Assembly (NCBI GenBank): GCA_951406725.2
Contig: OX597814.1
Coordinates: forward strand, 33,480,001-33,544,000
Origin: Octopus vulgaris
Taxonomy: Eukaryota
Reading direction: 5' to 3'
DNA length: 64,000 bases
The notes beneath the pieces were generated by a model that was not told where the DNA came from, ran no database searches, and worked only from the letters and a program-made list of their open reading frames with translations. A program made the position numbers and the translations under genes. Shown here piece by piece: positions 6,676-57,835 of the stretch; the first letter of the stretch is position 1, and the number at the start of each line of letters is the position of its first letter.

Positions 6676-6898
6676 GAGAAAAGAGAATATGTGTGTGTGT
6701 GTGTGTGTGTGTGTGTGTAATTATATATAGATGTAAAAATGTACGATATATATATATATATATACAGTGTACATTTAAACACATAAGAGATGACCATCAT
6801 ATGACACCTAGCACGCTTGAAGGAGTAGCCAAAATCCAAACCACTATTAGGGAGAAATTTCGAGGGGAATGAAAATATAAGCATTTACTATTTATCTC

Positions 6899-6968
6899 GT
6901 GAACCATGATTTCGAACGCTAAATTAGTAAATAAAGTAATTTGCAAGAAGGAGCTCTCTTCAGCAGGG
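6899..6968 (-). ncRNA. Type I hammerhead ribozyme (mirror copy, slightly decayed)
   Basis: Reverse complement reads CTG CTGAAGA GAGC...GTTC GAAA TCATGG TT CAC. Confidence 0.65.
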
Positions 6969-7312
6969 ACGCCAAGATAAACATAAATACGACGCAATAC
7001 AGTATATGCCTCGTGCTTATATGTAATAACTTTTCAAATCCACCGCGCAAGCGCAGTTTGTCGGCAACAAATAAAAATAATGCCGGCATTTCTTCAAAAA
7101 TTTGCCAAAAATTATCCGTAATTAAATTTTTTCCTACCCTAATATTTATTAATAATTGATAAGTTTTGGCAAGTTTTCGAAAACATGCCAGCATTATTTT
7201 TATTTGCTGACGACAAAAAGCTGCGCTTGCGCGGTGGATTTGAACAAGTTATAATATATAAGCACGAGGCATATACTGTATTGCCTCGTATCTATATGTT
7301 AATCTTGGCGTG

Positions 7313-7382
7313 TCTGCTGAAGAAAGCTTCGCCTAGCAAATTGCTTTATTTGCTAATTTAGAGTTCGAAACCATGGTCCAGG
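7313..7382 (+). ncRNA. Type I hammerhead ribozyme
   Basis: Stem I CTG/CAG; CTGAAGA core; extended stem II; GAAA; palindromic stem III ACCATGGT; GUC cleavage site. Confidence 0.8.
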
Positions 7383-7709
7383 AGATAGATTGTAAATGTT
7401 TTTATTTTCATTCTCTTCGAAATTTATCCTTAATAGTGGTTTGGATTTGGCTATTCTTTCTAGCGTGTTAGTGTCCTGTGATGGTTATTTCTTATGTGTT
7501 TAAATATACACTGTATTTATATGAATAATATATAGTCTATTGACTAATTTTCTGCATGCTAGGCCACTGGTAGTAAAAAATTTCTAAAATTTTGCCTTAC
7601 CCTGATATATGTATCTTTGTGTGTGCGTGTGTGTCCACGCATCACCACTTGACAACAAGTGTTGATGTGTTTACTTCCCGTAACTTAGCGTAAAGATAGA
7701 TAGATAGAT

Positions 7710-8415
7710 TAGTTTCTTTATTGGCCACACAGGGCTGCACACAGATGGGACAAGTTACAAGGTAGAACTTATCTTTTGGGGGATGAAAAAAAAAACAACA
7801 AAAAACAAAAGAATAAAAAAAAAAGGGTGGCGTAGGTTTTCGCTCAAAAGGGATCGTAAAAGGGAAGAAAAGAACAAAAAAAAAGGAAAAGAAAAAAGGG
7901 AAAAGGACAAAGGAAAAGAAAAATGAAAAAAGAAGAAAAAAGAGGAAAAAAGGGAGAAGAGGAAAAGAAAACGATCAATAGGGATCGTGTATCACAGTGT
8001 CAAGATGTATGGTGCAAAGGGGAAAGCAAGTAAGGTTTATCCGTGGGAAGAAAAGCCTACGAAAAAGACCACGGTAACCTTGGTCAATATTGTTATATGT
8101 TACCACATTTGTTTCCAAGTGGGTAACCCTCTGTTTTCAATTTCTGGGTTCATAGGATTATGCTCAAGGTGGCTTCGTCATTCATACGTGCCATCCTTGC
8201 TACATTCGCCCATCTTTTTTTTAAACGTTCGCTAGACAAAACTTGCCTCTCTACTCTCACTTTCCTTTTCAAGTGGTACTTGAAGAAGTTGATGAGAGGT
8301 TGACCAGAGAGGAAAGTGTTTGTCTCCAATCCTTTCAGACGCGTCCACCAGTTACATTCTTTCGCCATAGCCACAAGGATGATGAAAATAACTCCTCCTT
8401 CCCGTTTGAAGGAAG
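7710..8415 (-). mobile_element. 5'-truncated Tx1/L1-like LINE (ORF2 C-terminus plus 3' UTR) in (GATA)n
   Basis: ORF 8150-8374 AMAKECNWWTRLKG...FFKYHLKRKVRVER...RW; pyrimidine-rich 3' UTR ending aataaagaaac + (TCTA)n. Confidence 0.75.
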
Positions 8416-8520
8416 GATAGATAGATAGATAGATAGATAGATAGATAGATAGATAGATAGATAGATAGATAGATAGATAGATAGATAGATAGATAGATAG
8501 ATAGATAGATAGATAGATAG

Positions 8521-8830
8521 ATATGTTTCTTTATTAGCCACACAGGGCTGAACACAGAGGGGACAAATTATAAAGTAGAGCTTTTCTTTTGGGGGAGAAA
8601 AAAAGTGGGGGTAGGTTTTCGATCAAAAGGGATCGTAAGAAAAAAGAAAAGAAAAAGAAAAACCGATCAATAGGGATCGTGTATCATAGAGATGTCATGA
8701 TGTAAAGTGTAAAGGGGGAAGCAGATAAGGTTTATCCGTGAAAAGAAAAGCCTACGGAAAAGACCACGGTAACCTCGGTCAATAATGTCACATGTTAACA
8801 CATTTATTTGCAAGTAAGTAACTGTTTTAA
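8521..8830 (-). mobile_element. Second 3' UTR copy of the same LINE, between GATA arrays
   Basis: Homologous to 7710-8090; (GATA)n on both sides. Confidence 0.8.
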
Positions 8831-54786: not shown

Positions 54787-55098
54787 GAGGACGCGTGGCA
54801 GGGCATTCAGCTCACGATCGTAAAGTCGTCAGTTCGATTCCCGGCGACGCGTTGTGTCCTTGAGCATGACACTTTATTTCATGTTGCTCCAGTCCACTCA
54901 GCTGGCAAAAATGAGTAGTACCTGTATTTCAAAGGGCCAGCCTTGTCACACTCTGTGTCACGCTGAATCTCCCTGAAAACTACGTTAAGGGTACACGTGT
55001 CTGTGGAGTGCTCAGCCACTTACTCATTGATTTCACGAGCAAGCTGTTCCATTGATCGTATCAGCTGGGATCCTCGTCGTCGTAATCGACGGAGTGCT
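54787..55098 (+). mobile_element. Family B-related SINE (short variant)
   Basis: gttcgattccc box B; gtgtccttgagc; tail shared with family B. Confidence 0.8.
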
Positions 55099-55774
55099 CT
55101 TATACATGTATATATATATATATATATATATATATATATATACATGTGTGTGGTGTGCAGGTATGAGCATGTATCAAAACAGGAGACTTGAAAAACTTTT
55201 TGTATCATTTATTCACCATTACACGCGTTTCATTTGCTATTTACCTTGGAAAGATTTACATTTGGATGAAGTGTTTAGATTTAAATAGTAGTCAGGCGTC
55301 CTGTAGATAGTTGGCGGGGAAAATAAAAAACAAATATAGTAAAATTACTTTACGTGAAGATAATGTGCGTATGAGGAGGTGGGAGCGGCAGTGAAGGTAA
55401 ACAGAATACGAAGGATGTGATAAAAGTGAAGGCAAGTATATGAATATTAAATGCCTTTACAAGGAAGGAAGGTAGAGATAAAAGAAGTGAAATGGAGAGA
55501 AAAGATGGGAGTTCGGGAAAATAAGAGATCGGAGAAAAAAATAATTGCTGTACGAAACATTGGAAACGTGAAAGAGGCAAAACAACAACTGTGAGTCCTT
55601 TGAGAGAAGAAACGTTATTAAAAAGTACACACACCTAGTGGAAAATCCGGGGACGTTGGTGAGAAACTATTAAATGAAATTTAGTAAACTGAAGCACATG
55701 GAAAGGTAAAACGAATGTGAAAGAAGAGTGTGCATGTGAGTGAATGAGAAGCTTTTATATGCAGAAGTGAAAAT

Positions 55775-56220
55775 TTTCAGCTACTGAGAAAGGCTGTAAA
55801 AGTTAAGCCGCTACTCCCAAGAATGAAGGTGGGAATGGTATGCAGTGATATACATCTGGAAGATCCTTGAAGGACTTCTACCATACTTTGGTATTGAATA
55901 GTACGCCGCTGAATAGTACCAAGGATCCCAACATCACCATGAAAATACAAGACTAGATATAGTATTAGCTTGGGTTTCAATGGGCCCACAGCACTTCGAA
56001 ATGCCCAGGAGACCTGCATGATGTGAACGTAAGTGTCTTTAAAAAAACTGGATGAGCCTAACTCAAAGAAGGAAATACAGCTGAGGGCAGCAGCATCAAA
56101 CTCTCTCAGTCACCAAATGCCACATATCAGAGATGATTTCAAATAATGAAGGTGTAGCAAAGCCAAAGGTGGTGCCCCAGCATAGCCATAGCTTTCGGGA
56201 TGAAACTAGTTAGAGTCAGA
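55775..56220 (+). mobile_element. CR1/L2-group LINE 3' fragment
   Basis: YAVIYIWKILEGLLPYFGIE, SLGFNGPQ and RAAASNSL fragments; 3' end ggtggtgccccagcatagcc. Confidence 0.75.
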
Positions 56221-56593
56221 GAGTTGCATGTGTGGTGGGATGTAAGTATATATATATAGGTATGGATGTATGAATAGATATTTGTATATATTATATATAT
56301 ATATATATATCAATCAGGAGCAAATACTCAGGATCGAATATTTATATAGATATTAATATTGCTATTATTATCGAAGGCAATATAAATAGTTGATAATAAA
56401 AACAACATTAATATAGGCGGTTACAGGCCTAAAATAGCTTTATATGTGTCCTTATGATTGATATAATTTTAATGCTATAGCTATATAATGCTATTTTAGG
56501 CTTGCAACCACCTATATTAATGTTGCTGTTATTATTAACTATTTATATTGCCTTCGATAATAATAGCAATTTCAATATATATACTTACCACAC

Positions 56594-57006
56594 AGCAGGA
56601 GTGGCTGTGTGGTAAGTAGCTTGCTAACCAGCCACATGGTTCCGGGTTCAGTCCCACTGCGTGGCATCTTGGGCAAGTGTCTTCTGCTATAGCCCCGGGC
56701 CGACCAATGCCTTGTGAGTGGATTTGGTAGATGGAAACTGAAAGAAGCCTGTCGTATATATGTATATGTATATATATGTATGTGTGTGTTTGTGTGTCTG
56801 TGTTTGTCCCCCTAGCATTGCTTGACAACCGATGCTGGTGTGTTTACGTCCCCGTCACTTAGCGGTTCGGCAAAAGAGACCGATAGAATAAGTACTGGGC
56901 TTACAAAGAATAAGTCCCGGGGTCGATTTGTTCGACTAAAGGCGGTGCTCCAGCATGGCCGCAGTCAAATGACTGAAACAAGTAAAAGAGTAAAAAGAGT
57001 AAAGAG
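56594..57006 (+). mobile_element. SINE family A, full length
   Basis: Consensus match; preceded by a 13-bp inverted copy of its own head. Confidence 0.92.
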
Positions 57007-57177
57007 TATATATATATATATATATATATATATATATATATATATATATTTACGCCTGAATATTTGCTCCTGATTGGTATTTTTCCCACTGAGGCTGTCC
57101 TGATTTTGGCGCAAAACAATTCAGGACGCCAGCAAACATCAACGTAGCCGGTTGAGAAAATTTTTCAAATGGTTGGT

Positions 57178-57228
57178 ATGTGCTGATGAAGGTAAGTTTG
57201 CTATAGCAAACCAGAAACCGGTCCACGT
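57178..57228 (+). ncRNA. Type I hammerhead ribozyme
   Basis: atgtg CTGATGA a GGT..gtttgc tata gcaaac..ACC a GAAA CCGG TC cacgt; GUC cleavage site. Confidence 0.75.
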
Positions 57229-57835
57229 CTATACTAATACCTAAAAATATATAGCTTTATGCTATATAGGTATGTGAAGGATTTTTTCGATCCGTTCGCC
57301 CGAGTACTGTTGATTCTGTTATTATTTTTTTCACTGTTATCTTTTGCCTGTTTGAACGAGGGTTTTAACTCTTATCTCTAGCAGACAGACACAGTCGCGT
57401 GTCCTTATGTTTGATATAACTGTGTGTGTTCATATATATATATATATATATATATATATATATATATATAATATTAATTCGAGACAAAACCACTATTTTG
57501 CAAATCAAACAAGGAAAGACTTAATCAATACATAAAAAATTTTGGATTTATTCCCTAATATTTATTATTATATATATATATATATATATATATATATATA
57601 TATATATATATACAATAAGAGGCTTCCAAATAGGAAAGCGTTGTGCTAGAACACAAAAAGGGATAAATTCACGAATGGAATGAAAATTAAAAACTTTTAC
57701 CATCTCAGCTATTTCCCAGACGGACGGTTTCTAACTATTTCCAGCAAAAAAGTATTTGCTGAAGGCCAGTTTCTTCAGTGGGACAGCCTTAATAATCCTG
57801 ACATACAGACTGCTAGATCCACTTGTAGATCTAAC

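What the first reader, a model, noticed from the sequence alone, without database searches (positions are those of the whole stretch)
6763..57419. The same architecture recurs in three families with no evident mutual similarity
Seen: the loci at 6763-7608, 32516-33312 and 56311-57419 all read inverted partial copy > ~20 nt copy of the 3' end > HHR-bearing unit > 3' end. Unit lengths are about 463, 497 and about 487 nt (the last after removing the SINE). The HHRs have palindromic stem III (ACCATGGT, ATTGATTCAAT, ACCGGT), which is known to favour dimeric cleavage. Inference: a diversified class of ~0.5 kb ribozyme retroelements with a shared integration mechanism. I cannot establish from sequence alone whether this class is already catalogued.
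Basis: partly seen in the sequence, partly recalled or inferred. Interest (0 to 1): 0.82.

Follow-up and report, generated by a model that had tools for sequence, protein, structure and literature searches.

The report
Miniature Penelope-type hammerhead retroelement insertions
Three unrelated half-kilobase repeats, each carrying a hammerhead ribozyme motif, sit in AT microsatellites with the mirror-copy-plus-short-repeat layout already described for Penelope-like jumping genes, so they are most likely new protein-less passengers of those elements (retrozymes) and not a new class.

Summary
All three loci read inverted arm > 18-24-nt copy of the 3' end > unit (463, 497, 488 nt) with a type I hammerhead core, in TA/TG microsatellites, and the units are no more alike than shuffles. 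For locus 2, 5,364 contigs of four public runs were laid; diverged copies tile the unit and its start is preceded by its own end, so the 497-nt period is family-wide and not a truncated protein-coding element. The layout is the published Penelope-like element (PLE) signature (short pseudo-LTR, inverted copy, tail, hammerhead, (TA)n targets), and animal retrozymes are proposed in print as non-autonomous PLE derivatives. The trio is a selection: of 10 hammerhead-bearing loci in the window, 5 have an arm and 3 the short terminal copy. A 0.5-kb mode is untested (no genome held). Likely mechanism: both target strands primed on a tandem or circular RNA, one cDNA running a full period plus about 20 nt. 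This scan noted PLE-type architectures before in other genomes; these families were not noted. Verdict: new members of a known kind.

The parts
6763..7125 (-). L1 inverted arm (unit positions 4 to about 372), with a worn hammerhead at 6897-6968
   Evidence: 335/385 identical to 7149-7541; alignment A1
7122..7145 (+). L1 short copy of the 3' end (very short pseudo-LTR)
   Evidence: 19/24 to 7585-7608, best non-self hit; 0 of 1678 background windows as good
7146..7608 (+). L1 unit, 463 nt, no recognised protein
   Evidence: period from terminal copy; 71-aa open frame gave no real Pfam or Atlas hit
7312..7383 (+). L1 type I hammerhead: core 7317, helix III ACCATGGT, predicted cut after 7378; stem II closing pair mismatched in this copy
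32516..32779 (-). L2 inverted arm (unit about 237-497) with an intact second hammerhead (core 32733)
   Evidence: 253/263 identical
32780..32797 (.). L2 junction filler; its first 8 nt complete a 12-bp hairpin with the arm end (snap-back)
   Evidence: sequence; the family reads differently upstream of this point (loose ends before 33063)
32798..32815 (+). L2 short copy of the 3' end
   Evidence: 17/18 to 33295-33312
32816..33312 (+). L2 unit, 497 nt, multi-copy family with a head-to-tail period
   Evidence: contigs tile it; loose ends before 32798/32799 are the unit's own end; go-back joints
33088..33147 (+). L2 type I hammerhead: core 33094, stem I 6 bp, stem II 4 bp, helix III ATTGATTCAAT, predicted cut after 33141
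56311..56445 (-). L3 inverted arm (unit 17 to about 150), no hammerhead
   Evidence: 117/129
56446..56466 (+). L3 short copy of the 3' end
   Evidence: 20/21 to 57399-57419; 0 of 1672 background windows
56467..56588 (+). L3 unit, first 122 nt
   Evidence: continuous with 57054 onward when aligned to the arm
56589..57053 (+). later SINE-like insertion with (TA)n tail, interrupting L3
   Evidence: 16 other matches in the window, four near full length at 92-95%
57054..57419 (+). L3 unit, last 366 nt, with hammerhead (core 57183, helix III ACCGGT, predicted cut after 57223)
43334..44022 (+).
   Evidence: 187/232; end-versus-loop score matched by 164 of 1694 background windows
57611..57830 (-). L5, short relative of the L1 family with hammerhead core 57778 and a small hairpin at its 5' junction, ending in (TA)n
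   Evidence: 72.8% over 125 nt, E 1e-6
20948..21457 (+). F6a, another hammerhead family: arm 20948-21055 that runs about 50 nt past the direct copy's 3' end, tRNA-like segment, minimal hammerhead core 21382, target-duplication-like flanks (11/13)

Best explanation
The three loci are single insertions of three separate non-coding, hammerhead-bearing repeat families that likely borrow the reverse transcriptase and endonuclease of Penelope-like elements (PLEs); they would be PLE-derived retrozymes seen as one unit plus a very short pseudo-LTR and an inverted arm. Shown: the layout, the hammerhead motifs, the microsatellite targets, and for L2 a family-wide 497-nt head-to-tail period. Inferred: a master locus with two or more tandem units is transcribed; the RNA, uncut multimer or hammerhead-cut and re-ligated circle, is bound in trans by a PLE protein, which nicks both strands of a (TA)n tract; both 3' ends prime reverse transcription on AU-rich patches of the RNA; one cDNA runs through the hammerhead cut site for one full period and 18-24 nt more, the other stops earlier; the two cDNA 3' ends are joined head to head. 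These copies hold one hammerhead per orientation, so they could not cut out a monomer on their own and are probably dead ends. Confidence split: PLE-mobilised non-autonomous elements 0.85; double priming rather than fold-back 0.6; circular rather than linear template 0.45.
For: Family-wide period: loose ends before 32798/32799 read as the unit's own end in 24+26, 27+22 and 19+15 contigs of X1, X3, X8; joints go back from 33271-33287 to 32798-32807; copies 8-14% diverged tile the unit (X1 record 1, 32798-33025; X3 record 20, 32879-33152; X1 record 7, 33138-33294). PLE marks: inverted copy next to the upstream pseudo-LTR, tail, hammerhead, (TA)n bias (PMC8557442); 9 of 9 ends checked lie within 12 nt of a TA/TG run against a base rate of 0.122; cut site 108-230 nt from the 3' ends, as in Hydra-clade PLEs where the motif starts about 90-200 nt from the end in most rows. 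Double priming: the anole PLE protein cuts and extends both strands with the same start sites (PMC11167929); the L2 arm begins at exactly the same unit base as the direct copy; the L2 junction has an 8-nt snap-back of the arm's antisense strand; in F6a the arm holds about 50 nt beyond the direct copy's end, inside 11/13 duplicated flanks, which a fold-back copy of that cDNA could not hold. One source lineage for both arms: L2 arm and direct copy share alleles that 85-94% of family depth lacks at 33210 and 33220. Circle-compatible: L1 and L3 units fold as circles better than 40 of 40 shuffles; circular templates giving more-than-unit copies were proposed in PMC4209133.
Against: The period was tested beyond the single locus only for L2; L1 and L3 rest on one terminal copy each. 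No autonomous partner was identified: the RT-like stretch at 27717-28037 and the frame at 21057-21209 gave no database hit. The loops between arm and direct copy are short in L1, L3 and L4 (23, 37, 59 nt), and the L3 arm starts about 340 nt upstream of the 3' end, which fits fold-back at least as well. L2 as a circle folds no better than 3 of 40 shuffles. In the anole PLE, hammerhead cleavage was not needed for insertion in vitro, and 8 of 9 Xenopus dimers did not cleave, so the circle step is not required. Covariation in the L1/L5 hammerhead (2 two-sided changes in stem I) is not above shuffles with three sequences (134 of 500). No intact genomic dimer was seen: no listed contig spans even one unit.
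Confidence: 0.7

Rival explanations
1. Same elements, but the inverted arm is made by self-priming: the single cDNA folds back (or the enzyme jumps onto it) and is copied as a hairpin until it joins the second target strand.
For: Short loops of 23, 37 and 59 nt in L1, L3, L4; in L1-L4 the arm never passes the direct copy's 3' end; shared minority alleles in L2; a small hairpin at the 5' junction of L5; Arkhipova 2013 reads junction palindromes as self-priming.
Against: F6a arm extends about 50 nt past the direct end; the L2 junction needs two switches under fold-back and one under double priming.
Confidence: 0.3
2. L1 and L3 are ordinary 5'-truncated ends of autonomous PLEs, and the 21-24-nt piece is an aborted second cDNA, so the 0.5-kb lengths are only truncation lengths.
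For: PLE copies are typically 5'-truncated partial tandems; F6a begins with a frame that resembles a PLE endonuclease C-terminus (recalled; no hit); L1 has a 71-codon open frame upstream of its hammerhead.
Against: Refuted for L2 by the head-to-tail contigs; 233 and 292 nt lie upstream of the cut site in L1 and L3 with no recognised coding relic; by eye, the 3' end of Hydra-1_Obim shares only the hammerhead core with L1.
Confidence: 0.15
3. A self-standing new class of about 0.5-kb ribozyme retroelements with its own integration route, independent of PLEs.
For: Three unrelated families within 35 nt of each other in length; no partner identified; no paper found on these sequences.
Against: Every structural mark is a published PLE mark, and other hammerhead families in the same window (L4, L5, F6, F7) show the same marks without the 0.5-kb layout.
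Confidence: 0.05

Closest known systems
Endonuclease-bearing Penelope-like elements: insertion architecture (Craig 2021 PMC8557442 Fig. 2; Arkhipova 2013 PMC3846280; Goubert 2022 PMC8969392)
   Same: Partial tandem (a truncated upstream copy forming a pseudo-LTR), inverted copy at the 5' side, optional tail at one end, type I hammerhead near the 3' end, microsatellite targets.
   Different: No RT/GIY-YIG frame; unit 0.46-0.50 kb instead of 2-4 kb; upstream repeat only 18-24 nt instead of about 200 bp in the rotifer examples.
Metazoan non-LTR retrozymes (Cervera and de la Pena 2020 PMC7229834; Li, Clavereau, Pollet 2026 bioRxiv 10.64898/2026.07.22.740005)
   Same: Non-coding, low-GC (29-35%) head-to-tail unit with one type I hammerhead per unit; proposed PLE derivatives; monomers occur dispersed; lengths 51-972 bp cover these units.
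   Different: Here seen as one unit plus about 20 nt with an inverted arm, not as arrays; longer than the 220-400-nt coral, mussel and axolotl units; cleavage, circles and expression untested. The passages read do not describe inverted arms on retrozyme monomers.
Hydra-clade PLEs, including Hydra-1_Obim (Craig 2021, supplement files S1, S2, S7)
   Same: (TA)n targets, hammerheads with 3-4-bp near-palindromic helix III (ACCA-A-TGGT in Hydra-1_oBim against ACCATGGT in L1), short distance from hammerhead to 3' end, one entry with a 5' inverted copy.
   Different: Autonomous and 2-2.7 kb; no similarity to these units beyond the core by eye; three hammerhead motifs of L1-L3 not found in the supplement as held. 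A candidate mobiliser type, not shown.
Non-autonomous Chlamys elements such as MRC1; short non-autonomous Penelope elements of Heliconius (PMC6685494)
   Same: Short protein-less PLE passengers that form pseudo-LTRs and head-to-tail insertions.
   Different: Those Chlamys passengers generally resemble an autonomous family at the 3' end; no such partner was found here; Chlamys mostly lack canonical hammerheads.

Membership tests
PLE-type insertion | Truncated upstream copy in direct orientation (pseudo-LTR) | tested here: met
   18-24-nt copies in L1-L3
PLE-type insertion | Inverted copy adjacent at the 5' side, head to head | tested here: met
PLE-type insertion | Type I hammerhead near the 3' end | tested here: met
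PLE-type insertion | Optional 30-40-nt tail at one end | tested here: inconclusive
   End differences of about 90 (L1), 0 (L2), 50 (L4) and 50 nt (F6a); L3 arm starts far upstream
PLE-type insertion | Bias for (TA)n or other microsatellites | tested here: met
   9 of 9 ends against base rate 0.122
Autonomous PLE | Reading frame with RT and GIY-YIG endonuclease | tested here: not met
   Six-frame translation of the units; L2 family closes on itself at 497 nt
Non-autonomous PLE derivative | Sequence similarity to the terminus of an autonomous PLE of the same genome | not testable with these tools
   No genome, no Repbase or Dfam; supplement search negative for three motifs
Non-LTR retrozyme | Non-coding unit with head-to-tail period and one type I hammerhead per unit | tested here: met
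   Met for L2 at family level; L1 and L3 from one locus each
Non-LTR retrozyme | Genomic dimer or array with two intact hammerheads | tested here: inconclusive
   Junction contigs exist but no listed contig spans a whole unit; none in the window
Non-LTR retrozyme | Self-cleavage and circular RNA of unit length | not testable with these tools
   Only contigs were served
Non-LTR retrozyme | Low GC, no LTR-type primer site or purine tract | tested here: inconclusive
   GC 0.29-0.35; primer site and purine tract not searched for

The most novel reading that the evidence does not exclude
These insertions are footprints of circular RNA templates: the PLE enzyme goes once round a hammerhead-made circle of about 0.5 kb and stalls about 20 nt past its own start, so unit-plus-20 is a modal product across unrelated families. 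That would give the first genomic ruler for circular-template reverse transcription in PLEs and tie retrozyme circles directly to the unexplained tandem/inverted PLE structures.
Probability: 0.2. Interest if true: 0.65.

Novelty: new member of a known kind. Interest (0 to 1): 0.36.

Why it matters
How PLEs build their tandem and inverted ends is stated as unresolved in the papers read, and the link from retrozyme circles to PLE enzymes is so far distributional and phylogenetic. Abundant 0.5-kb families with whole insertions short enough to read in full offer many independent junctions for counting overshoot length, arm start points and allele sharing. As annotation, they are hammerhead repeats that Rfam misses. 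The class itself is not new.

Tried and rejected
Rfam: microsatellite-driven miRNA hits only among the 150 of 182 rows shown; 4 irrelevant weak hits on the L2 unit. Sequencing runs: no RNA holder on record; run X11 is only guessed to be RNA, 174 contigs were laid, and this says nothing on expression. Summed contig depth peaks at the unit junction (33225-33284 and 32805-32844) and at the hammerhead's 3' half (33105-33164); this hints at conservation or at most 3' ends lying about 30 nt further on, but depth is no copy number and was not used as proof. Minimum-energy folds of the isolated hammerhead regions do not give the active fold and are not better than shuffles (z 1.44 to -1.46). L4 terminal copy: not significant. 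Search for an autonomous partner: RT-like stretch 27717-28037 had no Pfam family, only Atlas leads under 0.9 (one RVT_1 cluster at 0.85) and 0 phmmer hits among 1.84 billion proteins; frame 21057-21209 had no hit; L1 open frame had no hit. Target duplications for L1-L4 cannot be read because the flanks are microsatellites. The fold-back at 54076-54608 was set aside: no hammerhead found in it. Literature searches found no paper on these sequences or on inverted arms on retrozyme monomers; the library lacks most subscription papers and Repbase/Dfam, the Craig supplement was cut when stored, and the supplements of the Li preprint were not seen, so prior cataloguing is not excluded. The host looks like an octopus from its SINE and microsatellite landscape; this is recalled, and a motif search did not confirm it. 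Earlier findings by place and by sequence gave nothing relevant.
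Full report
Scope. No genome is held for this window. The work rests on the 64-kb window, one laying of public contigs on locus 2 and papers. Papers seen: Li 2026 preprint, parts 1-3 of 5, abstract to discussion; Craig 2021, passages, the Hydra section and supplement parts 1-2 plus searches; Frangieh 2024, parts 1-2 of 4; Cervera 2020, passages and discussion; passages of Arkhipova 2013, Cervera 2014, de la Pena 2020, Goubert 2022, the Octopus vulgaris repeat paper and the Heliconius paper.

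Observation. The three loci are as described. Arms are 87%, 96% and 91% identical to their direct copies. The terminal copies (19/24, 17/18, 20/21) are the best non-self matches in the window and sit at the junction; 0 of 1678, 1 of 1678 and 0 of 1672 background windows score as high. Periods are 463, 497 and 488 nt. A strict hammerhead descriptor gives 5 cores against 0.12 in 100 shuffles. Helix III self-duplexes are -11.2, -6.7 and -8.3 kcal/mol and none folds as a stable hairpin alone, which fits dimeric folding as described for PLE hammerheads. The units are mutually unrelated.

The arms differ in kind. L1 covers unit 4 to about 372, L2 about 237-497, L3 17 to about 150 without the hammerhead. 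So the shared features are the head-to-head arm and the short direct copy, not a fixed arm.

Is the unit real? On 32765-33360, 2349, 2009, 832 and 174 contigs were laid from four runs of three organism labels, mostly 90-99% alike. The loose ends before 32798 and 32799 read as the unit's own 3' end in the three larger runs, joints go back from 33271-33287 to 32798-32807, and diverged copies tile the whole unit in overlapping pieces. The L2 family therefore closes on itself at 497 nt. This removes, for L2, both the truncated-autonomous reading and the rare-deletion reading. It also shows that other copies have more than 18 nt of redundancy or run on past our 3' end.

The wider window. Relaxed scans found more hammerhead loci: L4 (43334-44022, arm, no significant terminal copy), L5 (57611-57830, a relative of L1), F6a and F6b (20948-21457, 41917-42264) and three F7 cores (33453, 14503, 43162, each with a damaged core). 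Of these 10 loci, 5 have an arm and 3 have the short terminal copy.

What it is. Craig 2021 describes PLE insertions as partial tandems forming pseudo-LTRs, often with an adjacent inverted 5' copy, an optional 30-40-nt tail, hammerheads and (TA)n bias. Arkhipova 2013 gives the same with junction palindromes. Nine of nine ends checked here lie at TA/TG runs against a base rate of 0.122. The helix III of L3 occurs in Chlamys-2_cBra and that of L1 differs by one base from Hydra-1_oBim. Retrozymes are non-coding head-to-tail units with type I hammerheads, proposed as PLE passengers. The three families fit as such passengers. Membership of the autonomous class fails (no ORF); circle formation and a named partner are untested.

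How it likely works. Every direct copy reads through the predicted cut site and beyond one period, so the template was an uncut multimer or a ligated circle, not a cut linear monomer (inference from sequence). The anole PLE protein cuts and extends both strands of AT-rich DNA and starts internally on the RNA. I favour double priming: the L2 arm starts at the same base as the direct copy; its inner end carries an 8-nt snap-back that the family sequence lacks; and the F6a arm holds about 50 nt that its direct copy lacks, within duplicated flanks. Arm and direct copy of L2 share alleles rare in the family at 33210 and 33220, so both came from one source lineage. Against this, the loops of L1, L3 and L4 are only 23-59 nt and the L3 arm starts far from the 3' end, as fold-back would give. 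Whether the hammerhead cuts in the cycle is open: it was dispensable in vitro for the anole element.

Novelty. No paper on these sequences was found, with the limits given under Tried and rejected. This scan has noted PLE-type palindromes, truncated tails and mini-elements in other genomes. The families are new entries; the class and layout are known. The open, testable part is whether unit-plus-20 is a modal product of a circular template (probability 0.2). Interest 0.36.

Noticed in passing
window 20948-21457 (+) and 41917-42264 (-): A hammerhead family with a tRNA-like segment (box A and box B-like motifs, about 21239-21303) between a 50-codon frame that resembles a PLE endonuclease C-terminus (recalled, no database hit) and a minimal hammerhead; two copies about 80% alike. 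ARAGORN finds no tRNA.
   Followed up: partly
window 33453 (-), 14503 (-), 43162 (+): Three worn minimal hammerheads of one type (stem II GAGC/GCTC, helix III ACGT); the first two align at 69% over 114 nt; one abuts L2 tail to tail and one abuts L4.
   Followed up: partly
window 31792-32033 (+): About 2.1 tandem units of 115 nt, 95% alike, each with a CTGATGA core and GAAA but without the U needed to close helix III; possibly a decayed small retrozyme dimer.
   Followed up: partly
window 27717-28037 (-): Open frame with YTRYVDEI preceded by a GSM-like stretch, resembling PLE RT motifs (recalled); no Pfam or phmmer hit, weak Atlas lead to RVT_1.
   Followed up: partly
window 54076-54608: Fold-back of about 260-nt arms at 83% whose translation looks like the C-terminal part of a mariner-type transposase (recalled; Pfam gave nothing); no hammerhead.
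   Followed up: partly
window 52413-53249, 22904-23646, 10422-10993: Tc1/mariner transposase relics: Pfam DDE_3 at 52767-53246 and Transposase_1 at 22907-23248 and 10709-10990.
   Followed up: no
window 56589-57008 and 16 other matches: Abundant SINE-like family of about 420 nt with an internal TA/TG microsatellite; several copies 92-95% alike; one inserted into L3, dating L3 as older.
   Followed up: partly
window 43334-43427: 94 nt of unique sequence between the (TA)n flank and the L4 arm, matching nothing else in the window; a tail variant or captured DNA.
   Followed up: partly
window 7569-7602 and 32858-32887: A/T-stem hairpins near the unit junctions of L1 and L2; in L1 the terminal copy starts at about the loop of this hairpin.
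   Followed up: no
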